From Candidatus Micrarchaeaceae archaeon (lineage in GTDB: Archaea; Micrarchaeota; Micrarchaeia; Micrarchaeales; Micrarchaeaceae), in contig JBEKES010000001.1 in the NCBI GenBank assembly GCA_050013715.1, forward strand, positions 8,889 to 72,888: DNA of 64,000 nucleotides, written 5' to 3'. Under the pieces are notes generated by a model that saw nothing but the letters and a program-made list of their open reading frames with translations, did not search any database and was not told where the DNA came from. The number at the start of each line of letters is the position of its first letter. Position 1 is the first letter of the stretch. The translations under genes and the position numbers were made by a program. Shown here in pieces: positions 5,216-26,330 of this stretch.

Positions 5216-5274
5216 TTAGCTAATTCCGGCGCTTATTTTAGTCTTTGATGCACATAGCTTATGCTGTTTAATCG

Positions 5275-7722
5275 ATGAGAAGCATGGAGACTAAAGTCAA
5301 TGAAAAGATAATACACGGATCTATGCTTGAAGTCGATTACCTAAACAAGAATGAAGACTCAATCATAAGACTGACAGTAGCTGCAAAGGACGGCAAAAGA
5401 TACGAGATATTCGATGAATCCTTCAAACCCTATTTTTATCTCATAGCATCGAAGAACATGGAAAAAGAATTCATAGAAAACATATCAACAGTGGACAATG
5501 GGAAAGTGATAAAGGCAAGGGAAATCGTTGAAATTGAAAGGTCATTGTACGGAAAAAGCACAAAGGGATTCAAGGTAATAGTAAGCAACACCTCAAGCGT
5601 GCCGAAGCTGAGCTCGGCATTGGGGCAATACGGCACCTGCTACGAATATGACATACCATTCGCAAAAAGATACTCAGTTGATAAGCAGATTGTTCCGTTG
5701 GTAAATTACAGGATTGATGTTGAAGACAGGAACGGCATTCTTTTCCTGAAAGGCTTTGAAAAATCAGATGAGTCATTCTCCGAATTAAGAGTCATGGGTT
5801 TTGATATTGAGACCTATAACCCGTTAGGCGTTCCAAGATCCGATAAAGACCCGATAATAATGATAAGCTACCTTTACACAAACGGTTCTGAATTAAAAAA
5901 AGGTGTCATTACCTTCAAGAAGATAGATCTGCCGTTTGTAGAAGTTGCTAAGAACGAAAAGGACATGATAAAGAAATTCATTGAAAAGATAAACGAATTA
6001 GACGTTGACGTAATAATAGGATACAACTCAGCTAATTTTGACATAAGATATTTGATAGAACGTGCCCGTGCCATAAAAGTAGATTTCAACATAAGCAGAT
6101 ACGAAGGAGACACAAAAATAGAAAGCCACGGGTTAGTTGACAAGGTAAAGATAGCAGGGCGAGTTCACGTTGACATGTATGTTGTTATAAAGTTCATAGC
6201 AACAGTAGGTGCATCTGAAAGCATACTGAAGCTAAACAGCAAAACGCTGAAGAACGTATACGAGGCAATAACAAACGAGAAGAAGTTCGCAGTGGAAAAG
6301 ATGGACATCTTCAAATTATGGGACGGAACAGAGGAAGAATTGAAAACTCTTGCAACCTACAATCTTGCAGATGTAGAGGCACTGCAGAAAGTGTATGAAA
6401 CATTCATACCCATTATGATTGAACTGACACGAGTGACATACAACGTGCTCAGCGACGTTTCGGTTTCAACAACAGGACAGCTTGTTGAATTTATGCTGAT
6501 GCACAACGCAGTAAAATTCAATGAGATAATACCAAACAAGCCATCCGACTTCGAAATGAAGGAGCGATTGACCAATCCGATTGAAGGCGCATATGTAAAA
6601 ACCCCTGAGCCTGGAATCTACAGCAATTTGGTAATGTTTGACTTCAGGGGATTGTATCCTTCGATAATTATTTCCTACAACATAGACCCTTCATCGATAT
6701 GCAGGGATTGCACGGAATATTATGAAACACCTGATGGAACAAGATTCGATAAAAACAGGAAGAGCATAATACCTACAATACTCAAGGAACTGATACAAAG
6801 AAGAGCTGAAGTAAAAAAAGCTTACAAGAAGAATCCGGATGACATGTTCCTAGGAGCAAGGCAGCTTGCTTTGAAGATAGTGTCGAATTCGTTCTACGGT
6901 TATCTAGGCTATGCAAGATCAAGATGGTATTCAAGAGTCTGCGCTGGTGGAGTAACCGCACTGGGAAGGCAATACATACAGGAAAGCATAGAAAAGGCAG
7001 AAAAATTCGGGCTTAAGGCGATATACGGTGACACAGATTCCATTGTTGCGTTGGTTGGAGACAAGACAAAGGATGAAATACTTGCATTTCTCAAGGATTT
7101 CAATACAAAGTTACCTGAATCCATGGAACTGGAACTGGAAGATTTCTATAAGAATGGAGTATTCGTAGGAAAGAAGAACGACAAGGAAAGCTCTGGTGCA
7201 AAGAAGAAATATGCATTGATATCGGAATCGGGAAGAATAAAGATAAGAGGATTCGAACTTGTAAGAAGAGATTGGTCGAAGATAGCAAGAGACACACAGA
7301 GGCTCGTTCTTGAAACAATTCTAAAAGAAGGAGATCCACAAAAGGCTGCTGACATAGTAAGAGATGCAGTAAAAAGGCTCAAGAGCGGAACCATGCCACT
7401 TAGCGAGCTTGCGATAAGCACGCAACTGAGAAAAAGCATAGATGGATATGACGTAAAGTCACCAGAAGTAGGAGCTGCAAAGAAGGCAGTAAAAGATGGA
7501 CTCAAGACAAGAGAAGAATTAGAAGGCGCAGTAATATCGTTTGTGATAACAAAGCATGGAAGCACAATATCAGACAGAGCAACACTCGAAGAGTTTGCAA
7601 CAGATTATGATGCAGATTACTACATAAATCATCAGGTGATACCGGCAACAATGAGAATATTGAAAGAACTTAATTTCGATGAAGATGACCTAAAAGGGTT
7701 AGGCACCCAGAAGAAATTATGA
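5275..7722 (+). CDS. polB: Family B DNA polymerase
   Basis: Exo I FDIETY, Exo II YNSANFDIRYL and Exo III YNLADVEAL. Pol motifs are DFRGLYPSIII, KIVSNSFYGYLG and IYGDTDS. Confidence 0.95.
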   Translation: MRSMETKVNEKIIHGSMLEVDYLNKNEDSIIRLTVAAKDGKRYEIFDESFKPYFYLIASKNMEKEFIENISTVDNGKVIKAREIVEIERSLYGKSTKGFKVIVSNTSSVPKLSSALGQYGTCYEYDIPFAKRYSVDKQIVPLVNYRIDVEDRNGILFLKGFEKSDESFSELRVMGFDIETYNPLGVPRSDKDPIIMISYLYTNGSELKKGVITFKKIDLPFVEVAKNEKDMIKKFIEKINELDVDVIIGYNSANFDIRYLIERARAIKVDFNISRYEGDTKIESHGLVDKVKIAGRVHVDMYVVIKFIATVGASESILKLNSKTLKNVYEAITNEKKFAVEKMDIFKLWDGTEEELKTLATYNLADVEALQKVYETFIPIMIELTRVTYNVLSDVSVSTTGQLVEFMLMHNAVKFNEIIPNKPSDFEMKERLTNPIEGAYVKTPEPGIYSNLVMFDFRGLYPSIIISYNIDPSSICRDCTEYYETPDGTRFDKNRKSIIPTILKELIQRRAEVKKAYKKNPDDMFLGARQLALKIVSNSFYGYLGYARSRWYSRVCAGGVTALGRQYIQESIEKAEKFGLKAIYGDTDSIVALVGDKTKDEILAFLKDFNTKLPESMELELEDFYKNGVFVGKKNDKESSGAKKKYALISESGRIKIRGFELVRRDWSKIARDTQRLVLETILKEGDPQKAADIVRDAVKRLKSGTMPLSELAISTQLRKSIDGYDVKSPEVGAAKKAVKDGLKTREELEGAVISFVITKHGSTISDRATLEEFATDYDADYYINHQVIPATMRILKELNFDEDDLKGLGTQKKL

Positions 7723-7783: not shown

Positions 7784-8371
7784 ATGAGTGAAACATCAGC
7801 ATTTAAAAAAGGTAGTGCAGTTGCTCCTTTACTTAAAGGAATTAATTCAGGCATATCTTTGCCTTTAATTAGACATACGAGAGACGAAAAAGAAAGTGAC
7901 TATTTTTTTGTAGTACAGTCGAATAAAATCATATCAGTTTCAATATTTGATGGTGTTCTTAATCATCCACAATATTCATTTAGTGAAGGGTTTGAAATTG
8001 CTGCGCCATTTACATTATACGCAACTAAACTTGCTGATGACAAATTCGGATATTTATATTCAGATAAGAATGGTTTGATAGTGACTCAAGATTTTATTGC
8101 TTCAGTTACAACCCATATGGCTTTTATAATTACTGATTTAGAAACACGTGGAACTATGAATTGTAAATTAAATGGTAACAGGTTATCTGTATGCAGCGGT
8201 TCTGATCCTCTTTTTAGTTTAATACAGAAAGAACCAGGTCGTGCTTATGTTGAAAGTGTAGTAGATAGTAGAAAAGAGTATGAATATATTGGCGCTCTTG
8301 GTATATTATCATCAAGCGCAAGTCCATGTGTTTTTGTTTCGTCGGATTCACATGAAATACTTAGATTATGA
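7784..8371 (+). CDS. Hypothetical protein (195 aa)
   Basis: ORF with GTGAT-N3-ATG (GTGAT at 7776-7780). No motif recognised. Confidence 0.5.
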   Translation: MSETSAFKKGSAVAPLLKGINSGISLPLIRHTRDEKESDYFFVVQSNKIISVSIFDGVLNHPQYSFSEGFEIAAPFTLYATKLADDKFGYLYSDKNGLIVTQDFIASVTTHMAFIITDLETRGTMNCKLNGNRLSVCSGSDPLFSLIQKEPGRAYVESVVDSRKEYEYIGALGILSSSASPCVFVSSDSHEILRL

Positions 8372-20700: not shown

Positions 20701-21306
20701 CTAACTTCTTTTTATGTCATTAACAAATTTTAATGCAATATCCGGATAGGCTTTTTTCGCAAGATCCAATACAGATGCCCCAGTCCAATCTTTTGTATCT
20801 GAAAGAAGTTTTATACCATCTTCTGTTTCTGTGAGTTTGTTTGCTACGCTTTCGTGGTAGTTAACAGCAACATGAAGAGAGCTCCAATTAGTATTGTTTT
20901 CTTTTGTACTTGCAAGCAGGTTTTTCCCCTCTTCTTTTTCTATTAGCTTAAGCGCTACTTTTTCATATAATTCAACAGCAGCATGAAGTATAGTTCTGCC
21001 ATCAAATCTAGTTTCCACAAGAAGATTAATCCCTTCTTGCGTTTCTATAAGTTTAAGTGCAACACTTTCAAAGTTTATAACAGCAAGAAGAAGAGCACTT
21101 GGCCCCTCATTTTTGACAAGATCTCCACTATCATGTGGTTTTACTGTTTCGGCAAGCAGTTTTCTGCCATATTGTGTTTCTACTAATTGAAGCATGAGTT
21201 GTTCATTTTCAACAAATTTTAAAACATTATTAGTGTTAACTACACCGTATCCATTAACAGTTATACTTATTTTAGATACATCTATTGCCATTGGCTTTGT
21301 CGCCAT
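20701..21306 (-). CDS. Ankyrin-like repeat protein (201 aa, about 5 repeats)
   Basis: Repeats of about 35 aa with an ANK-like pattern, for example DGRTILHAAVELYEKVALKLIEKEEGKNLL, NWSSLHVAVNYHESVANKLTETEDGIKLL and PSALLLAVINFESVALKLIETQEGINLL. Confidence 0.6.
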   Translation of the reverse strand: MATKPMAIDVSKISITVNGYGVVNTNNVLKFVENEQLMLQLVETQYGRKLLAETVKPHDSGDLVKNEGPSALLLAVINFESVALKLIETQEGINLLVETRFDGRTILHAAVELYEKVALKLIEKEEGKNLLASTKENNTNWSSLHVAVNYHESVANKLTETEDGIKLLSDTKDWTGASVLDLAKKAYPDIALKFVNDIKRS

Positions 21307-21409: not shown

Positions 21410-21943
21410 TTACATAAATTCATGGCTTTCTTCTAGTTCTGCGGTTCGCAGTGCTTCTAAGAACACAGGTGTTTCATGATAATTGGCATCTCTTGCCCCC
21501 TGAGCTATTTTGTATATCATTCTAATAAGAGCCGCTTCCTGTGAAGCATATGCAGATCTAACTAATCTTTCTTTGTTTTCAGTGATAGAGCTTTCTTCTC
21601 TCATAAAAATTGATAAAAGAGACTTTGATTGCCTTTGCTCTAACCTATGCCTTTCAAGCTCCAATAATGTTGCAGATAAAAGAAATTCTGAGGTTTCTAT
21701 TACTAACAAACCAGAGACGCGTGCTTGGGCTTCTCCATTTACAAAGTTTGAGGCTTCTACAGCAGTATCGTGTGATTTACGAGCCATTCTAAGATAATCA
21801 AGGTGGTATTTTCCACCATCATTGTAACGGTAGTGCCCTTCAATTATTCTAGTAAATTTTGTGTATGAATCATCTATTTTCCCAGCAATAGCCAAACCTA
21901 ATGCTAATGTAGTTTCTGCCATTGGAGATACGGTTTTGTTCAT
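21410..21943 (-). CDS. Hypothetical protein (177 aa from Met at 21943)
   Basis: The start is chosen at the ATG preceded by GTGATAAAA. Predicted helical, no motif recognised. Confidence 0.5.
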   Translation of the reverse strand: MNKTVSPMAETTLALGLAIAGKIDDSYTKFTRIIEGHYRYNDGGKYHLDYLRMARKSHDTAVEASNFVNGEAQARVSGLLVIETSEFLLSATLLELERHRLEQRQSKSLLSIFMREESSITENKERLVRSAYASQEAALIRMIYKIAQGARDANYHETPVFLEALRTAELEESHEFM

Positions 21944-22072
21944 TTTTATCACATTATAATTATGACTTAGGAAATATTTATACCTGATTATGTTGTACGT
22001 CACTTGTCTTTCAAAAAACCAGGAACCTTAACAAAATGATAATGTTAATAATTTATATTGCTTATTTTACTT

Positions 22073-22281: not shown

Positions 22282-22662
22282 TCAAGAAGCTTTTTTCTGT
22301 TTTCTGAGAAGTCTTTCTCTTTTAACGCTGTCTAAATCATGAAAAAGCCGGCGCCCTGATTCAGTTAATTCGTATAAGCAATTTACCCCTTTTACAAAGC
22401 CAAAGTGCTCTAATTCATAAAGCCCTGCAACGTTTTGTTTTTCTATATATATCTTTTTGTCTCTGTCTAAACGTTCCAAAACCTTTATCATTATACTAGC
22501 TACACTAGTTGCTTGAGAAGTATCTTTTACATCAGCATCATGTAATAGAATAGCTGCACACCTCTTTGTAAAAGCGTTCTTTTGGGCTTCAAATGCCTGT
22601 TCAGCTCTACCTAATTTTTGCCATGTTGATTCTTCAACTCTTATAGTTTTTGTTCTATCCAT
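22282..22662 (-). CDS. Hypothetical protein, possible ribbon-helix-helix N-terminus (126 aa from Met at 22662)
   Basis: The ATG at 22662 is preceded by GTGATGGA. KTIRVEESTWQKLGRAEQ looks RHH-like and the C-terminus is basic. Confidence 0.5.
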   Translation of the reverse strand: MDRTKTIRVEESTWQKLGRAEQAFEAQKNAFTKRCAAILLHDADVKDTSQATSVASIMIKVLERLDRDKKIYIEKQNVAGLYELEHFGFVKGVNCLYELTESGRRLFHDLDSVKRERLLRKQKKAS

Positions 22663-22815
22663 TCCATCACTCATTTAGCTCTATTTTAAGAGATATATAT
22701 ACTTTTTCTACAACTTCTTTTCAAAAGCCTAAACTACTAATAACATAATTCCGCTATTCGCGAATATTGCCTAATTTTAAAAGGCTTGTCTTTGCTTGAT
22801 TTAGCGGCGATCAGC

Positions 22816-23077: not shown

Positions 23078-23767
23078 CTAAGACCTTAACCTCTTAAATA
23101 GTCTTTTCATAAGACTTGGTTTTGGTTCTGCATAACCAGCTAGAGTTACGAATGCTTCTCCAGTTGGAAAGGTTATTGGCTCTTCTCCTGATACGAAAAC
23201 GTGTTTTTCGTGATCCAGAACACAATCTCCTCTTTTAAGAGAAAAAATGGCATGCTTTGTAACCAAAAGACCTGTAGAGTATTCACCTTTTAATTTTTTG
23301 ATAAATTCATAAGTTACAACCATCTTGGCAGTAGCATCTTCCTTTCCAAGCGACATGCCCGGGCGTAATATACTGATACCGACCATTTCGCCTTCCATAA
23401 CATAATACCATCCAGAAAGATTTGAACTATTTTCAGCATCGGAATACGTAGCCGGAGCTGAATCTCTGTCGAAAAATCTAAATGATATGAGAGATTTGTT
23501 GAAGTTTGGAACATCATATACGGTAGGCATTGTTATGTTAGAGCGTCCTTTCAGATACGTATCACGCAGATGCGTCAAAACAAAAACAGGATCCCTACAA
23601 CCTATTTCTCTACCAATGGTTGTTTCAGAAGATCCATCAATACCAGTAAATGCAGTACACGAATGATATTGCACATAGGTCTTAGTCTTTCTCATTTCTA
23701 AGTTTGCAGAAGGGTTTGGTTGGAATCTTCCAGGTTCGTTTTTTTGCACATTACTTGTTGTTGTCAT
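23078..23767 (-). CDS. ORFan operon gene 5. Distant member of the GxC-IRI family with a unique C-terminal domain (229 aa).
   Basis: GTGATAATATG start context. The N-terminal RKTKTYVQYHS...IGREIGCRDPVFVL parallels HKTKITGYKHT...LGKESGACGIRIKM of the neighbouring paralog. Confidence 0.6.
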   Translation of the reverse strand: MTTTSNVQKNEPGRFQPNPSANLEMRKTKTYVQYHSCTAFTGIDGSSETTIGREIGCRDPVFVLTHLRDTYLKGRSNITMPTVYDVPNFNKSLISFRFFDRDSAPATYSDAENSSNLSGWYYVMEGEMVGISILRPGMSLGKEDATAKMVVTYEFIKKLKGEYSTGLLVTKHAIFSLKRGDCVLDHEKHVFVSGEEPITFPTGEAFVTLAGYAEPKPSLMKRLFKRLRS

Positions 23768-23793
23768 ATTATCACGCTATAATTGTAACATTT
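23765..23793 (-). repeat. Gene-junction repeat copy A (stop of paralog + SD + ATG of the next gene)
   Basis: catattatcacgctataattgtaacattt. The 25-nt core ttatcacgctataattgtaacattt is identical to 24556-24580. Confidence 0.9.
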
Positions 23794-24205
23794 TATTTAT
23801 CTTTTTACCGATGGCAATGAGCTCGTTTTGCATTTGCTCGTTGAACTCCAATTTGTAAACGTAATATTCGAATTGCCCGTACCCCATCATATTATGATTT
23901 ACCTCCGCATCTACTGGAGTATCATATTTTGCCGCACGGCTTTCCATTTCCTGCTTTATTAGTTTATTTATCTCTTCGAATTGTTTCCTTGACATTTTTA
24001 TCCTTATGCCGCAGGCACCTGACTCTTTGCCCAACAGTATATAGCTTGCTGGTCTGCCAGCCATAGTATGTTTGTAACCAGTTATTTTGGTTTTGTGATG
24101 AATTCTGGCCTGCTTTTGGACTGTCTGGCTTTCCCTGATCCATAAACCGTTTATGGCTAGCCTTGGAGGCACTGGAATCTGTTTTGGTTCTGCAGATGCT
24201 AGCAT
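23777..24205 (-). CDS. ORFan operon gene 4. GxC-IRI family paralog (142 aa).
   Basis: GACGIRIKMSRKQF core and ELIAIGKKINKMLQL tail. GTGATGATATG start context. Confidence 0.65.
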   Translation of the reverse strand: MLASAEPKQIPVPPRLAINGLWIRESQTVQKQARIHHKTKITGYKHTMAGRPASYILLGKESGACGIRIKMSRKQFEEINKLIKQEMESRAAKYDTPVDAEVNHNMMGYGQFEYYVYKLEFNEQMQNELIAIGKKINKMLQL

Positions 24206-24209
24206 ATCA

Positions 24210-24554
24210 TCACAATTGCAGCTCTTTCTTCACATCGGATCCGATAAAAAGAAGGGCCTCTACCACTAAAGCGTCAACCTCTGCCTCATAGCCGGAGCAC
24301 CTAATTTCTGCAAATCCCTGTTCATCATAGATATAATTAATCCTTGGAAGCACGGCAAGCCTTGCAGGATTTCCTTGTGGGTTCTTGACTTCCCTTAGAT
24401 TGTTGAATTGGCTTTCTGACATTTTTATTCTTATGGCGCAAGTACCGATCCCTTTATAGCTTATATAATGGTGGCTTGCCCCAAAATTAGGGACTATTTC
24501 TTCTTCGTAGCCTTTCAGCCTTGTTGTTCTCGGATTGTTTATTGTTGCTGGCAT
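24210..24554 (-). CDS. ORFan operon gene 3. GxC-IRI family paralog (114 aa).
   Basis: GTCAIRIKMSESQF core and LLFIGSDVKKELQL tail. GTGATAACATG start context. Confidence 0.65.
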   Translation of the reverse strand: MPATINNPRTTRLKGYEEEIVPNFGASHHYISYKGIGTCAIRIKMSESQFNNLREVKNPQGNPARLAVLPRINYIYDEQGFAEIRCSGYEAEVDALVVEALLFIGSDVKKELQL

Positions 24555-24580
24555 GTTATCACGCTATAATTGTAACATTT
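24552..24580 (-). repeat. Gene-junction repeat copy B
   Basis: catgttatcacgctataattgtaacattt matches copy A at 28 of 29 positions. Confidence 0.9.
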
Positions 24581-24980
24581 CCTTTATTTTGGCGCCTATG
24601 CCAATAAGTTCATTTTGTGCTTGTGTATTGTAGCTTTCTGTATAAGCTCCATAGGAAAATGTGCCGAACCCTTTTTCACCATAAGTAACGCATATTTGTT
24701 GAATTGGTGTTGTTTTTGGAATGGCCTTTTCCATTTCTAGCTCAATTTGGTTTTTTATGCTATCAAATTGTTGCCTTGACATAAGTATTCGTATACCACA
24801 GGCGCCAAAATGGTTACCTAAGGTTACATAGCTAGCACCAGTGCATTCAACAACATTGTGCTCATATCCTTTTATAGTTCTTTTGCATGTTTGTGCTGCA
24901 TGTGTTTCCTCCCATTCCGGTGATTGCATTCTATTTTCTACTGGAGGTGCAGATCTAGGAATGGTTTGCATTTTACTCAT
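24564..24980 (-). CDS. ORFan operon gene 2. GxC-IRI family paralog (138 aa).
   Basis: GACGIRILMSRQQF core and ELIGIGAKIKEMLQL tail. GTGATAATATG start context. Confidence 0.65.
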   Translation of the reverse strand: MSKMQTIPRSAPPVENRMQSPEWEETHAAQTCKRTIKGYEHNVVECTGASYVTLGNHFGACGIRILMSRQQFDSIKNQIELEMEKAIPKTTPIQQICVTYGEKGFGTFSYGAYTESYNTQAQNELIGIGAKIKEMLQL

Positions 24981-24992
24981 ATTATCACAGTA

Positions 24993-25340
24993 TTATTGCA
25001 TTTTTATACCCTGAATGCTTTGCTCCCTTAGGAATTCAAGCCAAGTTTGGAAGTTTGCGACAACAATTTCTCTTGAATCGCGCAAACTTGTTAGTTTATA
25101 TAACAAGAGAGTTACTGCAAATTTTGTTGCTGTAGAATCGTTATCAAATATTTTTGGATCTACAATTCTGACCATTTTAATGTAAGAATCGAGAAATATT
25201 TTCATTTGCCCTAGGTCTGTTATTTCCTTTACAGCAATTTCAGCTACAGAACCTGAAGTTCTGCCGCGCATTAGACCATCTATAAATGGAACTCTGCCAG
25301 TTATGTCTACTCCTCTAACTACTGTTTTTAATGCATCCAT
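24993..25340 (-). CDS. ORFan operon gene 1 (115 aa), unrelated in sequence to the paralogs
   Basis: GTGATAATATG start context and a TATA-like box about 33 nt upstream. It lies 12 nt upstream of the next gene. Confidence 0.55.
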   Translation of the reverse strand: MDALKTVVRGVDITGRVPFIDGLMRGRTSGSVAEIAVKEITDLGQMKIFLDSYIKMVRIVDPKIFDNDSTATKFAVTLLLYKLTSLRDSREIVVANFQTWLEFLREQSIQGIKMQ

Positions 25341-25367
25341 ATTATCACATTATTATTGCAGCTTTCC

Positions 25368-25379
25368 AAATATATATAG
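25368..25379 (-). promoter_or_regulatory. TATA-like box upstream of the ORFan operon
   Basis: The minus strand reads CTATATATATTT, centred about 33 nt upstream of the ATG at 25340. The same geometry is seen upstream of the ATGs at 59787 and 28247. Confidence 0.3.
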
Positions 25380-25413
25380 CTTATTGTGCCATCGATTATT
25401 GACGAATTAATAA

Positions 25414-26070
25414 TTAGGTAATGTTAAGGTCTGAAAGCTGGTATGCCAATAACTGCTTTGCCTGGCTTAGCTGCAGTGCCGTGCCCTGGTTGAATATTAA
25501 TATAGCATAAGGGCCGTCATGGGCATAGATTACAGCTGCAGCCTGTCCTTTGTTGATTGCATCGCCAGAATAGAACATATAGGTTGAATCTCCCTGCAAT
25601 CCTGTTGTTACGTTTGATGCATTGGGAAACATTGATTTTAATGCTGAATTTACGTAATTATTTGCATCAATTGGATTATAGAATGCTACCCATTCCGTGG
25701 ATAGTAATTCTCCTCCGTTGCTGAAGCTTTCTGATCCTAATGCCTTTACCATTACCTTTGAACCGTTCGGATAGGTTAGGTTTGTATTGTTGCTGCTGTA
25801 TTGCGCAGCTGAGGTCCAGCCGGTTCCCAGTGAAGATATTACTTGCTCTACGGCAAGCGACTTGTTTCCTCCGCTGATTTGATATATCGTTGTTGTGCAT
25901 GTTGGATTTGCTGTTGTTGTATTAGAATTGGTTATGGTGGTATAGGATGAGCCTGTGCTTATGCTGATAGAAGATGAACTGCTTCCGAATTTGCCAGATG
26001 TTACGATGTAAGCCAATGCAACTATTGCAATGATTATAACTATTGCAACTACAATAGAACCCGCTTTCAT
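25414..26070 (-). CDS. Secreted or anchored Ser/Thr-rich protein with many N-x-S/T sequons
   Basis: N-terminal TM GSIVVAIVIIIAIVALAYIV, followed by an SSSSSISISTGSSYTT linker. Sequons are NTT, NKS, NNT, NLT, NGS, NAS, NVT and NIT. The start is taken at the Met at 26070 (listed 26103). Confidence 0.55.
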   Translation of the reverse strand: MKAGSIVVAIVIIIAIVALAYIVTSGKFGSSSSSISISTGSSYTTITNSNTTTANPTCTTTIYQISGGNKSLAVEQVISSLGTGWTSAAQYSSNNTNLTYPNGSKVMVKALGSESFSNGGELLSTEWVAFYNPIDANNYVNSALKSMFPNASNVTTGLQGDSTYMFYSGDAINKGQAAAVIYAHDGPYAILIFNQGTALQLSQAKQLLAYQLSDLNIT

Positions 26071-26135
26071 AGAACTACCCAAGTTATTATTATAAAACAG
26101 CATAAAGTTATATAAATTTGTTTTATTCCTGAATT

Positions 26136-26330
26136 TTATTTCTTCTTTTGAGTATTAGTTAAACGGAACATTTTCCTGAAAGTAAGGTATATTATGTAAA
26201 CTACCAGGATGAAAAGCACGAGTATGGTAATATCGCCAAGCACACGGGGCAGATACCCGAATGCAAAGCCCAAAGCCAATAATACAAGGAAAATCGTAGC
26301 AACTATTGATACTTTGACAGATTTTTCCAT
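26136..26330 (-). CDS. Small two-TM membrane protein (64 aa)
   Basis: VSIVATIFLVLLALGFAFGY and ITILVLFILVVYIIYLTF hydrophobic segments. Confidence 0.4.
   Translation of the reverse strand: MEKSVKVSIVATIFLVLLALGFAFGYLPRVLGDITILVLFILVVYIIYLTFRKMFRLTNTQKKK

What the first reader, a model, noticed from the sequence alone, without database searches (positions are those of the whole stretch)
23078..25340. ORFan operon built around a tandemly amplified small-protein family (best candidate for an undescribed system)
Five co-directional minus-strand genes lie at 24993-25340, 24564-24980, 24210-24554, 23777-24205 and 23078-23767. They are separated by only 4-12 nt. Each has a GTGAT Shine-Dalgarno 3 nt from its ATG, and a single TATA-like box sits upstream of the first gene, so this looks like one transcription unit. 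The three middle products (138, 114 and 142 aa) are clear paralogs. They share a basic-x-I/L-x-G-Y-K/E-H/E element followed by (A)SY-I/V-x-LG. They also share an invariant block, G-A/T-C-G/A-I-R-I-x-M-S-x-x-Q-F (GACGIRIKMSRKQF, GTCAIRIKMSESQF, GACGIRILMSRQQF). A conserved C-terminal helix ends in LQL-stop (ELIAIGKKINKMLQL, LLFIGSDVKKELQL, ELIGIGAKIKEMLQL). The 229-aa last gene carries a degenerate copy of the N-terminal half (RKTKTYVQYHS..IGREIGCRDPVFVL versus HKTKITGYKHT..LGKESGACGIRIKM) fused to a unique larger domain. There are no signal peptides or TM helices, and I can assign no known family. Variable Pro-rich N-termini combined with an invariant core and tail are what one expects for subunits of a hetero-oligomeric assembly or for a diversifying binding module. 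That function is inference only.
Basis: partly seen in the sequence, partly recalled or inferred. Interest (0 to 1): 0.75.

Follow-up and report, generated by a model that had tools for sequence, protein, structure and literature searches.

The report
Tripled orphan-like protein family in Micrarchaeota
A five-gene operon in a tiny symbiotic archaeon carries three tandem copies of a small, fast-evolving, undescribed protein family that looks like a protein-binding adaptor and is fused in relatives to a protein-deamidating enzyme; its role is unproven and the two flanking genes remain orphans.

Summary
The five minus-strand ORFs, their 4-12 nt spacing, the GTGAT-N3-ATG ribosome-binding motif and the paralogy of the three middle genes are all real. 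The window comes from a Candidatus Micrarchaeaceae (DPANN) genome.

The middle genes are not true ORFans. An exhaustive HMMER search found 29 distant relative clusters (best E 6e-19). Every named source is Micrarchaeota, and none has a Pfam, NCBIfam, PHROG, PADLOC or PDB sequence match. I call this "family X".

The AlphaFold model is confident (core pLDDT >95). It shows a disordered N-terminus and a β3-α-β2-α two-layer domain, the strand/helix order of type III secretion chaperone/YbjN-like protein binders. The Foldseek support is only weak.

In one clade, X is fused to a CheD/NTAN1-type Cys-His-Thr amidohydrolase.

X evolves fast: 28-34% identity against 51-89% for syntenic neighbours, and dN/dS of 0.4-0.9. 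It has duplicated independently in at least three lineages. A related genome has a single X gene behind the same promoter.

The claim that the 229-aa gene holds a degenerate X copy is not supported. That gene and the 115-aa gene have no detectable relatives.

Best reading: non-enzymatic protein-binding adaptor or regulator subunits. The mechanism is inferred.

The parts
25341..25410 (-). Promoter and leader of the operon. It contains a TATA-like box (CTATATATAT, 25370-25379) and the Shine-Dalgarno GTGAT (25344-25348).
   Evidence: Sequence read. About 70 nt aligns with the region upstream of the single family-X gene P0005 in the syntenic locus L014. The 28-nt leader (25338-25365) is repeated at 89% identity at the g1/g2 junction (24978-25005) (family D2).
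24993..25340 (-). g1: 115-aa soluble orphan protein (pI 9.0), first gene of the operon.
   Evidence: ORF. No Pfam, PHROG, NCBIfam or PADLOC hit. No PDB sequence hit. No homolog in any non-conspecific locus. Not related to family X. It is flanked by two copies of the leader, so it is probably a lineage-specific insertion behind the ancestral promoter.
24564..24980 (-). g2: family-X paralog, 138 aa.
   Evidence: BLASTP vs g4 E=6e-28, 48% identity. Family HMM E=7.8e-45. Sister to g4 in the NJ tree.
24210..24554 (-). g3: family-X paralog, 114 aa, with the shortest N-terminus. It is the more divergent, older copy.
   Evidence: BLASTP vs g2 E=5e-13. Family HMM E=2.4e-34. It does not group with g2/g4 in the NJ tree.
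23777..24205 (-). g4: family-X paralog, 142 aa. It was used for the structure model.
   Evidence: Identical to NCBI 'MAG: hypothetical protein ABR981_00210 [Candidatus Micrarchaeaceae archaeon]'. AlphaFold2 gives mean pLDDT 84 and core >95. Residues 1-35 are disordered. The elements are strands 36-39, 54-58 and 62-70, helix 73-91, strands 99-105 and 109-118, and helix 119-141.
23078..23767 (-). g5: 229-aa soluble orphan protein (pI 8.9), last gene of the operon.
   Evidence: ORF. Only a self fragment was found among 5.8 billion clusters. No family hits, no PDB sequence hit and no viral contig hit. Not related to family X or to the fused deamidase domain. Only its first 4 codons and the upstream junction are shared with the g2/g3 junction (family D3).

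Best explanation
The locus is a lineage-specific expansion of an undescribed protein family, here called 'family X'.

Shown by the analyses:
- Family X is Micrarchaeota-restricted, small, cytoplasmic and fast-evolving.
- A related genome has one X gene driven by the same promoter at the same chromosomal spot, next to PCNA.
- In this genome the gene was duplicated to three tandem copies. g2 and g4 are the recent pair and g3 is older.
- Two orphan genes were recruited into the same transcription unit: g1 in front, between two copies of the leader, and g5 behind.
- Each X protein has a variable, disordered N-terminal tail and a ~100-residue two-layer alpha/beta domain.
- The element order is three strands, helix, two strands, long C-terminal helix. 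This is the order seen in type III secretion chaperones and YbjN/AmyR proteins, which act by binding other proteins and have no enzymatic activity.
- In one Micrarchaeota clade the X domain is fused upstream of a CheD/NTAN1-type Cys-His-Thr amidohydrolase (protein deamidase).

Inferred mechanism:
- X proteins are non-enzymatic protein-binding adaptor or regulator subunits.
- They probably act as homo- or heterodimers through the open sheet face and the long C-terminal helix.
- They dock a client protein. In the fused forms they would target or regulate a protein deamidase.
- In this genome the three diverged copies would widen or split client specificity, with g1 and g5 as possible lineage-specific clients or partners.
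- The fast sequence turnover, raised dN/dS and repeated independent duplications point to an accessory role, such as interaction or conflict, and not to a core housekeeping role.
For: Operon anatomy and the SD motif.

Paralogy.

Family:
- 32 representatives have E<=1e-3 and 15 have E<=1e-10 among 1.84 billion proteins.
- The shared signature is [IV]xGYExxVxPGVxAS[YF]...[CAS]GIR[IV][KR]M..x[QE]F...Y[DN]xxG[FY][GA]E[FL]x[YF]xx[YF]...LxxxG.
- Named sources are all Micrarchaeota: the window organism, Micrarchaeia KM4364-30 and Micrarchaeota WH2.bin153.
- No Pfam hit for any of the 32 members, even at E<=5.
- No PDB sequence hit.

Structure:
- The model is confident.
- Foldseek hits are weak but thematically consistent. 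PDB top hits are TON_0450 (E=0.014, TM 0.54) and ARPC2/4. T3SS chaperones (Spa15, CesT, SycH) appear, and SpcU in the search with the fused-protein model.

Fusion:
- P0025, P0033 and P0018 (300-309 aa) carry X plus a C-terminal domain.
- The AlphaFold model has pLDDT 85-95 in the C-domain.
- Foldseek matches human NTAN1 at E=3.9e-6, prob 1.0, then CNF1/CNFy.
- CheD HMMs hit residues 151-227 at E=0.0045-0.015.
- The motif T-x5-C-x16-H in P0018 has exactly the spacing of CheD T21/C27/H44 and NTAN1 S69/C75/H92 (PMC7022378).

Synteny and promoter orthology with L014.

Rapid evolution:
- X is 28-34% identical to the syntenic P0005, against PCNA 89%, the 137-aa gene 77%, DJ-1 69%, Rpr2 65%, HIT 64% and the wHTH gene 51%.
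- dN/dS is 0.40-0.89 for the X-fusion gene, against 0.07-0.15 for its neighbours.

Independent duplications: window x3; L008-L011 x2, a sister pair; L023 x2, a sister pair.

g1 and g5 are absent from all other loci.
Against: - The fold assignment is weak. No Foldseek hit for the X model has E below 0.01. X lacks the N-terminal helix of T3SS chaperones. Archaea have no T3SS.
- No CheD/NTAN1-like domain is encoded in this 64-kb window or next to unfused X genes. The deamidase link rests on one clade of fusions.
- In that clade one copy is split by a frameshift (L012) and dN/dS approaches 1. This could mean decay and not function.
- Oligomerisation, binding partners and expression were not testable.
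- All conspecific contigs are 100% identical, so selection on g1-g5 themselves could not be measured.
- X also sits repeatedly among replication and translation genes and next to tRNA genes. A housekeeping nucleic-acid role would also explain that.
Confidence: 0.4

Rival explanations
1. Structural hetero-oligomer. The five products, or at least the three paralogs, are stoichiometric subunits of one multi-subunit assembly. The paralogs would occupy distinct positions, as ARPC2/ARPC4 do in the Arp2/3 complex.
For: The genes are tightly coupled translationally (gaps of 4-12 nt, each with its own SD). The paralogs keep an invariant core and a conserved C-terminal helix ending in LQL. ARPC2/ARPC4, which heterodimerise through long C-terminal helices, are among the best Foldseek hits (E 0.02-0.09).
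Against: Most relatives have a single X gene and no g1 or g5. A fixed five-part complex therefore cannot be the ancestral function. The duplications are recent and independent in three lineages. The fold hits are weak.
Confidence: 0.15
2. Conflict-system module. X proteins would be immunity- or antitoxin-like neutralisers, or effector-delivery domains, of a toxin such as a deamidase. The tandem array would resemble the arrays of fast-evolving immunity paralogs in polymorphic-toxin loci. g5 could be a lineage-specific toxin or effector.
For: X proteins are small and cytoplasmic, diverge fast, have raised dN/dS and duplicate repeatedly in tandem. The architecture 'N-terminal X domain + C-terminal CNF1/CheD-like deamidase' resembles an N-terminal trafficking domain plus a C-terminal toxin. 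One fused copy lies among genes that look by eye like AbiEii/AbiEi and PIN/CopG toxin-antitoxin pairs (L022). The fused gene has lower dS than its neighbours and sits in different genomic contexts at 90% DNA identity, which suggests horizontal exchange.
Against: PADLOC gives no hit. No viral contig hit was found. No co-directional small gene follows the fused gene in L007. X is kept at a conserved chromosomal position next to PCNA/DJ-1/Rpr2 across divergent lineages, which is unusual for mobile conflict modules. No toxin domain is recognisable in g1 or g5.
Confidence: 0.15
3. Housekeeping nucleic-acid-associated factor. X would be an RNA- or DNA-binding protein of the translation or replication apparatus of Micrarchaeota.
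For: The genomic neighbours are repeatedly informational genes: PCNA/Rpr2 (window, L014, L027), Cdc6/Orc1 (L012, L013), the ribosomal protein cluster and SUI1 (L016, L008) and RadA (L026). tRNA genes lie within 300 bp in 3 of the 9 independent non-window loci scanned for tRNAs. The conserved hairpin R-G-[FY]-[GA]-E-[FL]-x-[YF] resembles the RNP1 octamer of RRMs, and conserved R68 and K70 alternate with buried residues on the central strand (the RNP1 consensus is from my own knowledge).
Against: The core domain is near neutral and varies in charge (pI 4.7-10, net charge -7 to +8). No RRM, KH or other nucleic-acid-binding family hit appears even at E<=5. A core factor would not be only 28-34% identical where PCNA is 89%. 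Informational genes make up a large share of these tiny genomes, so adjacency is weak evidence. The tRNA orientation differs in each case.
Confidence: 0.1
4. Substrate or decoy of a deamidase. X itself would be the protein that the CheD/NTAN1-like enzyme deamidates or is inhibited by, as CheC mimics the receptor substrate of CheD. The modified residue would be the conserved Gln/Glu at the start of helix 1.
For: Position 75 (before the conserved Phe) is Q in 15 members, E in 7 and A in 4 of 32. That Q/E interchange is reminiscent of receptor sites deamidated by CheD (my own knowledge). Both fused proteins keep Q there. CheD is regulated by a separate small alpha/beta protein, CheC, which is known biology cited in PMC7022378 only for CheD's substrates.
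Against: Q/E/A/K at the exposed first turn of a helix is common and proves nothing. CheC and CheX do not appear among the Foldseek hits. No deamidase gene lies near unfused X genes.
Confidence: 0.05
5. Evolutionary debris. The extra copies, g1 and g5 would be neutral by-products of local duplication or insertion in a variable region, with little or no function.
For: g1 and g5 have no relatives. The region between PCNA and the wHTH/137-aa pair holds ~7.5 kb of extra, lower-GC, lineage-specific DNA compared with L014. The fused relative shows dN/dS near 0.9 and one frameshifted copy.
Against: Long intact ORFs (115-229 aa) persist in a 37-40% GC genome. All five genes keep a perfect SD at the canonical spacing. 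g2 and g4 have diverged to 48% identity yet keep every family-signature residue, which requires purifying selection on both copies. DPANN genomes are streamlined.
Confidence: 0.1

Closest known systems
Type III secretion class I chaperones and YbjN/AmyR family (secretion-chaperone-like fold)
   Same: Both are small cytoplasmic two-layer alpha/beta proteins. The order of elements is the same after the first helix. AmyR has a(10-20) b b b a(67-82) b b a(115-138) (PMC5398634). X has b36-39 b54-58 b62-70 a73-91 b99-105 b109-118 a119-141. Spa15, CesT, SycH and SpcU recur among the Foldseek hits of both models. These proteins act purely by protein binding.
   Different: There is no sequence similarity and no Pfam hit. 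Foldseek E-values are only 0.07-0.3 and TM scores 0.3-0.4. X lacks the N-terminal helix and has a disordered tail instead. Archaea have no T3SS. Dimerisation is untested.
TON_0450 of Thermococcus onnurineus (PDB 3UEB) and MTH uncharacterised protein 3CXJ
   Same: TON_0450 is the best structural match of the X model (E=0.014, TM 0.54 over 95 columns, 17-18% identity). Both are archaeal ~100-aa proteins.
   Different: The match is below the usual confidence thresholds. TON_0450 has no known function, and no paper was found in the library, so the match gives no functional transfer.
CheD / NTAN1 / CNF1 (CNF1/YfiH-like cysteine hydrolases; protein Gln/Asn deamidases)
   Same: The domain fused to X in P0018, P0025 and P0033 matches NTAN1 structurally (E=3.9e-6). 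It matches CheD HMMs over the active-site region (E~5e-3). It carries Thr-x5-Cys-x15/16-His, the catalytic-triad spacing of CheD and NTAN1.
   Different: This domain is not encoded in the window operon or anywhere in the 64-kb window. Scores are far below the curated CheD cut-offs (16-17 bits against 240-251). An N-terminal X domain is not part of any described CheD or NTAN1 architecture. Micrarchaeota chemotaxis receptors were not seen.
ARPC2/ARPC4 core subunits of the Arp2/3 complex
   Same: They recur among the Foldseek hits (E 0.02-0.09, TM ~0.4). They are paralogous alpha/beta subunits with long C-terminal helices that heterodimerise, which is a model for how X paralogs might pair.
   Different: They are eukaryotic and much larger (about 170-300 aa). 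The similarity is weak, and there are no actin-related genes in the neighbourhood.
Tandem immunity-gene arrays of polymorphic toxin systems
   Same: Both are small soluble proteins that diverge fast and form lineage-specific tandem paralog arrays. This comparison rests on my own knowledge of such systems.
   Different: No recognisable toxin gene or secretion-associated domain lies in the operon. The ancestral chromosomal position next to PCNA is conserved. PADLOC gives no hit.

Membership tests
Family X (undescribed Micrarchaeota family defined here) | Significant match of g2, g3 and g4 to the family profile, and presence of the signature GY[EK]..AS[YH]...C[GA]IRI[KL]MS..QF...G[FY][GA]..L..IG | tested here: met
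   Family HMM E-values are 7.8e-45 (g2), 2.4e-34 (g3) and 2.2e-37 (g4).
   BLASTP finds no alignment. hhalign gives Prob 0.1%. Smith-Waterman against 2000 shuffles gives p=0.09-0.64. Six-frame HMM search gives E>=1.9.
Family X | g1 (115 aa) is a family member or a frame-shifted copy | tested here: not met
   hhalign aligns only 23 columns, which lie in the fused proteins' C-terminal extension, at Prob 1.9%. Smith-Waterman gives p>=0.17. Six-frame HMM search gives E>=4.
Single operon (one transcription unit) | Co-directional genes, minimal spacers, one promoter, no internal terminator | tested here: met
   The gaps are 4-12 nt. The only TATA-like box lies upstream of g1 and is conserved in L014. 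The terminator scan is not above chance and finds none on the minus strand inside the unit. Actual co-transcription cannot be tested here.
Secretion-chaperone-like fold (T3SS class I chaperones / YbjN) | Element order alpha-beta(3)-alpha-beta(2)-alpha in a two-layer sandwich | tested here: inconclusive
   X has beta(3)-alpha-beta(2)-alpha without the first helix (compared with AmyR).
Secretion-chaperone-like fold (T3SS class I chaperones / YbjN) | Significant structural or profile match to a family member | tested here: not met
   Foldseek E is 0.07-0.3 for Spa15, CesT, SycH and SpcU. No Pfam hit to CesT or YbjN-type families in any of the 32 members.
Secretion-chaperone-like fold (T3SS class I chaperones / YbjN) | Homodimer that binds an extended client peptide | not testable with these tools
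   No multimer prediction or experiment was available.
CNF1/YfiH-like cysteine hydrolases (CheD/NTAN1) - for the domain fused to X in relatives | Alpha-beta-beta sandwich fold matching a solved member | tested here: met
   Foldseek matches NTAN1 entries 6a0f/6a0i/6a0e at E=3.9e-6 to 1.3e-5, prob 1.0, and CNF1 1hq0 at E=0.014.
CNF1/YfiH-like cysteine hydrolases (CheD/NTAN1) - for the domain fused to X in relatives | Catalytic triad Ser/Thr-x5-Cys-x16-His | tested here: met
   P0018 has T-x5-C-x16-H, the same spacing as CheD T21/C27/H44 and NTAN1 S69/C75/H92. P0025 and P0033 have T-x5-C-x14-H. The residues are invariant in alignment A5.
CNF1/YfiH-like cysteine hydrolases (CheD/NTAN1) - for the domain fused to X in relatives | Score above the curated CheD family cut-off (true CheD ortholog) | tested here: not met
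   NCBIfam CheD models score 15.7-17 bits against cut-offs of 240-251. No Pfam hit.
CNF1/YfiH-like cysteine hydrolases (CheD/NTAN1) - in the window itself | A deamidase domain encoded in or near the operon | tested here: not met
   An HMM of the fused C-domain against all six-frame ORFs of the window and of all loci hits only the fused genes and the split L012 copy. The rest of the genome is not available.
RRM-type RNA-binding domain | Match to an RRM profile or fold | tested here: not met
   No RRM family appears among the Pfam hits at E<=5 for the 32 members. No RRM appears among the top 50 Foldseek hits. There is only a partial resemblance to RNP1.

The most novel reading that the evidence does not exclude
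Family X would be the targeting or regulatory partner of a previously unrecognised protein-deamidation pathway in DPANN archaea, built on a CheD/NTAN1-type enzyme. Examples would be an N-degron-like protein-turnover signal or an effector that modifies host proteins. The fast-evolving tandem paralogs in this genome would then be a diversified set of client-recognition adaptors shaped by the symbiont-host interaction.
Probability: 0.12. Interest if true: 0.75.

Novelty: new variant of a known kind. Interest (0 to 1): 0.45.

Why it matters
DPANN archaea such as Micrarchaeota live attached to host archaea. Most of their lineage-specific genes are uncharacterised, and these genes probably encode the biology of that lifestyle.

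This work turns an apparent ORFan cluster into a defined family. The family now has a signature motif, a confident structural model, a phyletic range, an evolutionary history (a single ancestral gene next to PCNA, then repeated tandem duplication) and a concrete biochemical lead (fusion to a CheD/NTAN1-like Cys-His-Thr deamidase).

If the adaptor-deamidase link holds, it would be the first indication of regulated protein deamidation in DPANN archaea. It would also give an experimentally tractable handle: two small soluble domains. If the link does not hold, the family is still a clean new entry for family databases and a marker of rapidly evolving accessory genes in Micrarchaeota.

Tried and rejected
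- Curated libraries. Pfam, PHROGs, NCBIfam and PADLOC scans of g1-g5 and their neighbours gave nothing for g1-g5. A Pfam scan of all 32 family members at E<=5 gave no recurrent family.
- PDB sequence searches with single sequences and with profiles gave nothing meaningful.
- The word-index homology search returned only self for g4 and g5. With the 32-sequence profile it returned only five proteins.
- The search for related loci with family alignments found no confirmed relatives in the genome, metagenome or viral collections. With the fused proteins it returned only the three known MAGs. With g5 on viral contigs it found nothing.
- A viral or mobile-element origin is not supported. There are no PHROG or IMG/VR hits, no flanking long repeats and no integrase.
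- g5 or g1 as degenerate or frame-shifted X copies is rejected.
- g1 as a homolog of the tail of the fused deamidase domain rests on a 17-residue match (GVDITGRVPFIDGLMRG vs GVDALGRVYVPDKLIKG). The pairwise E is 0.011 and hhalign Prob is 1-2%. I treat it as chance.
- g5 as a cryptic CheD-like enzyme is rejected. No Cys in g5 has the T/S-x5-C-x15-17-H spacing (read from the sequence), and the HMM gives no hit.
- X as a generic basic nucleoid protein is rejected. The core charge is near neutral and variable.
- Population dN/dS for the operon was impossible, because all conspecific contigs are 100% identical. Within the L008-L011 population the X genes carry no SNPs.
- The L008 156-aa gene, at the position that X occupies in L026, is not a family member.
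- Rfam and tandem-repeat scans of the region found nothing relevant.
- Literature searches for TON_0450 and for CheD/deamidase in DPANN found no papers.

Full report
**1. The observation**

The window encodes five co-directional minus-strand ORFs at exactly the stated coordinates:
- g1, 24993-25340, 115 aa
- g2, 24564-24980, 138 aa
- g3, 24210-24554, 114 aa
- g4, 23777-24205, 142 aa
- g5, 23078-23767, 229 aa

The spacers are 12, 9, 4 and 9 nt. Each ATG is preceded by GTGAT at a 3-nt distance. GTGAT-N3-ATG occurs 22 times in the window against 2.7 expected (0 of 100 shuffles reach 22), and it marks many other gene starts. It is therefore the organism's Shine-Dalgarno motif and not a peculiarity of this locus.

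None of the five products has a hydrophobic segment that could span a membrane. The gene just upstream (25414-26103) does have one, and it has its own upstream region.

The three middle products are clear paralogs. g2 vs g4 is 48% identical (E=6e-28) and g2 vs g3 is 30% identical (E=5e-13). The relationship is still visible in the DNA:
- Three copies of the block that encodes GIRIKMS are 71-75% identical.
- A 76-nt stretch spanning the g4/g5 junction is 80% identical to the g2/g3 junction.

**2. What is not confirmed**

The proposal that g5 carries a degenerate copy of the family fails every test:
- BLASTP finds no alignment.
- hhalign against the family profile gives Prob 0.1%.
- Smith-Waterman scores are indistinguishable from shuffles (p=0.09-0.64).
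- A six-frame HMM search finds no frame-shifted remnant.

Only the junction and the first four codons of g5 are shared with g3. g1 is likewise unrelated to the family.

**3. Origin and relatives**

g4 is identical to an NCBI protein annotated 'MAG: hypothetical protein ABR981_00210 [Candidatus Micrarchaeaceae archaeon]'. The lineage is Archaea; Nanobdellati (DPANN); Micrarchaeia. The same locus occurs, 100% identical at the DNA level, on contigs from several metagenomes.

The word-index search saw only the self hit. An exhaustive HMMER search of 1.84 billion representative proteins with the three-paralog profile found 32 proteins at E<=1e-3. Of these, 29 are non-self, the best has E=5.9e-19, and 15 have E<=1e-10.

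The members share this signature:
[IV]xGYExxVxPGVxAS[YF] ... [CAS]GIR[IV][KR]M..x[QE]F ... Y[DN]xxG[FY][GA]E[FL]x[YF]xx[YF] ... LxxxG
Ser54 (g4 numbering) is invariant.

The N-terminal extensions vary from 4 to 77 residues. None of the 32 members hits any Pfam family, even at E<=5. There is no NCBIfam, PHROG, PADLOC or PDB sequence match. Every member whose source is named comes from Micrarchaeota MAGs. All other loci carry archaeal informational genes. I call this undescribed family 'family X'.

**4. Structure**

AlphaFold2 with the 32-sequence alignment gives a confident model of g4. The mean pLDDT is 84 and the core is above 95. The layout is:
- residues 1-35 disordered
- strands 36-39, 54-58 and 62-70
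- helix 73-91
- strands 99-105 and 109-118
- helix 119-141

Foldseek finds nothing with E below 0.01 in the PDB or below 5e-3 in BFVD. The weak hits are nevertheless coherent:
- archaeal TON_0450 (E=0.014, TM 0.54)
- ARPC2/ARPC4
- the T3SS chaperones Spa15, CesT and SycH, and SpcU in the search with the fused-protein model
- Pcc1

The element order equals that of the T3SS-chaperone-like YbjN protein AmyR (a-b-b-b-a-b-b-a) minus the first helix. [quoted passage not shown] The core has no consistent positive charge, which argues against a simple nucleoid protein.

**5. A fusion gives the only biochemical lead**

Three relatives of 300-309 aa (P0018, P0025, P0033), all from Micrarchaeota MAGs, carry X at the N-terminus and a ~190-residue extension. 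Three independent lines identify the extension:
- Structure: the AlphaFold model (C-domain pLDDT 85-95) matches human N-terminal asparagine amidohydrolase NTAN1 at E=3.9e-6 (prob 1.0), followed by the CNF1 and CNFy deamidase domains.
- Sequence: three NCBIfam CheD models hit residues 151-227 at E=0.0045-0.13, far below the curated cut-offs.
- Motif: the alignment-invariant Thr-x5-Cys-x16-His of P0018 has exactly the spacing of the catalytic triads CheD T21/C27/H44 and NTAN1 S69/C75/H92 (PMC7022378). P0025 and P0033 have a hairpin shorter by two residues.

The fused domain is therefore very probably an active CNF1/YfiH-like cysteine hydrolase, that is, a protein Gln/Asn deamidase.

No such domain is encoded in the 64-kb window or beside any unfused X gene. 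In locus L012 the fusion is split by a frame change.

**6. Evolutionary history of the locus**

Locus L014 comes from a related genome and is syntenic with the window. Its gene order is HIT-Rpr2-DJ-1-PCNA, then a single X gene (P0005), then the wHTH/137-aa gene pair. About 70 nt upstream of P0005, including the TATA-like box and the SD, aligns with the region upstream of g1. The operon therefore uses the ancestral X promoter.

In the window lineage:
- The 28-nt leader is present twice, before g1 and at the g1/g2 junction (89% identical). This suggests that g1 was inserted behind the promoter.
- X was amplified to three copies. g2 and g4 are sisters and g3 is older.
- g5 and about 5 kb of further lineage-specific genes follow. 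These include an ankyrin-repeat protein.
- PurM, a kinase and two membrane-protein genes lie between PCNA and the promoter.

g1 and g5 have no homolog in any other X-encoding locus, nor in the 5.8-billion-cluster database for g5.

Tandem or near-tandem duplication of X happened independently in at least two other lineages:
- L008-L011: P0023 and P0013, a sister pair.
- L023: P0006, a 77-aa TM gene, then P0004; P0006 and P0004 are sisters.

The PCNA/DJ-1/Rpr2 neighbourhood recurs in a distant member (L027). Other members sit beside Cdc6-PadR-methyltransferase (L012, L013), a ribosomal protein cluster plus SUI1 (L016), or RadA (L026).

**7. Evolutionary rate**

Between the window genome and L014, the flanking orthologs have these identities: PCNA 89%, 137-aa gene 77%, DJ-1 69%, Rpr2 65%, HIT 64% and wHTH 51%. 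X is only 28-34% identical.

dN/dS values:

| Comparison | Gene or region | dN/dS |
|---|---|---|
| L007 vs L013 | fused gene, whole | 0.81 |
| L007 vs L013 | X part | 0.40 |
| L007 vs L013 | C-domain part | 0.89 |
| L012 vs L013 | X domain | 0.45 |
| L012 vs L013 | neighbouring methyltransferase | 0.07 |
| L012 vs L013 | neighbouring PadR | 0.15 |

In the L012 vs L013 comparison the X domain also has a lower dS than its neighbours, and the L007 and L013 copies sit in different contexts at 90% DNA identity. This hints at exchange between genomes.

Family X thus behaves like an accessory, rapidly changing gene, not like a core informational factor. The retention of all signature residues in g2/g4 at 48% identity shows that both copies are under constraint.

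**8. Interpretation**

Shown:
- the operon anatomy
- a new Micrarchaeota family
- a confident two-layer alpha/beta model with a disordered tail
- a fusion to a CheD/NTAN1-like deamidase in one clade
- the ancestral single-copy state
- recurrent duplication and fast evolution
- the orphan status of g1 and g5

Inferred (confidence about 0.4):
- X is a non-enzymatic protein-binding adaptor or regulator module that probably dimerises.
- The paralogs split or widen client specificity.
- g1 and g5 are candidate lineage-specific partners.

Rivals:
- a fixed structural hetero-oligomer (0.15)
- an immunity- or effector-type conflict module (0.15)
- an RNA/DNA-associated housekeeping factor (0.10); this is suggested by the informational neighbours, by tRNA genes within 300 bp in three loci and by an RNP1-like hairpin motif
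- non-functional debris (0.10)
- a deamidase substrate or decoy (0.05)

**9. Novelty and verdict**

The family is not described in Pfam, NCBIfam, PHROGs, PADLOC or the PDB. The X-deamidase architecture also appears undescribed: literature searches found nothing.

The fold class and the kind of event are familiar. This is a lineage-specific tandem expansion of a small accessory protein family in a DPANN genome rich in hypothetical genes. The five-gene set is not a conserved system.

I rate it a new variant of a known kind, with moderate interest (0.45). The value lies mainly in the testable link to protein deamidation in DPANN archaea.

Noticed in passing
L014:10744-10816, L008:9803-9878, L007:9788-9862 (also L023:2649-2721): tRNA genes lie within 120-300 bp of family-X genes in three of the nine independent non-window loci scanned for tRNAs (four if the tRNA-Pro about 1.9 kb from X in L023 is counted). 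They are tRNA-Pro(cgg) downstream in L014, with the same tRNA about 1.9 kb away in L023, tRNA-Met upstream in L008, and tRNA-Arg(ccg) upstream of the fused gene in L007. Orientations differ. This could mark integration hot spots or be chance. The window operon has no tRNA nearby.
   Followed up: partly
L012:5035-5779: In this relative the X domain (P0034, 5035-5415) and the deamidase domain (5480-5779, another frame, HMM E=1.6e-19) are split. This is a frameshift, pseudogene or assembly error in an otherwise fused gene.
   Followed up: partly
L007:9908-10915 vs L013:9908-10942: The fused X-deamidase gene is 90% identical in DNA between two MAGs, but it sits in unrelated neighbourhoods: after tRNA-Arg in one and after Cdc6-PadR-methyltransferase in the other. 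In the L012/L013 comparison its dS (0.15) is lower than that of the flanking genes (0.25 to saturated). This suggests horizontal exchange or relocation of the gene.
   Followed up: partly
L022:696-2023 and 5256-5994: The fused gene of Micrarchaeota WH2.bin153 lies between ORFs that look by eye like an AbiEi/AbiEii (nucleotidyltransferase toxin, 'FKGGT...RFSEDLDF') pair and a CopG-like/PIN-domain pair. That is a toxin-antitoxin-rich context. It was not verified with profile searches.
   Followed up: no
window:18800-26300: This stretch has lower GC (0.33-0.40) than its flanks (0.42-0.45). It is filled with lineage-specific genes that are absent from the syntenic locus L014: an ankyrin-repeat protein (20701-21306), a weak wHTH 130-aa protein (22282-22674), a 197-aa orphan (21410-22003), a TM plus Ser/Thr-rich 229-aa probable surface protein (25414-26103) and a 64-aa double-TM protein (26136-26330).
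   Followed up: partly
window:25338-25365 and 24978-25005: The 28-nt leader in front of g1 is repeated (89% identical) at the g1/g2 junction, so the last codons of g1 (K-M-Q-stop) are encoded by a copy of the leader. This is consistent with g1 having been inserted, or having arisen, between two leader copies behind the ancestral family-X promoter.
   Followed up: partly
window:24181-24194 and window:23119-23132: A 14-nt exact match (blastn E=0.004) links the 5' end of g4 (coding SAEPKQ) and the 3' end of g5 (coding YAEPKP). It is too short to interpret.
   Followed up: no
family-X alignment A3, g4 residues 104-117: The conserved hairpin Y-D-x-R-G-[FY]-[GA]-E-[FL]-x-[YF] resembles the RNP1 octamer of RRM domains ([RK]G[FY][GA][FY][ILV]x[FY]). 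No RRM profile or fold match supports this.
   Followed up: partly
L011 vs L008:1905-2663: Of 63 SNPs between two population variants over 11.5 kb, 51 fall in one gene (TP_methylase: 36 synonymous, 15 non-synonymous). This looks like a recombination patch. The X genes carry none of the SNPs.
   Followed up: no
window, whole: GTGAT-N3-ATG (part of the extended anti-16S motif GGAGGTGATC) precedes many genes across the window, for example those starting at 7784, 9807, 11191, 28410, 30438 and 41030. This Micrarchaeaceae genome therefore uses strong SD-led initiation widely, including on first genes of operons.
   Followed up: partly
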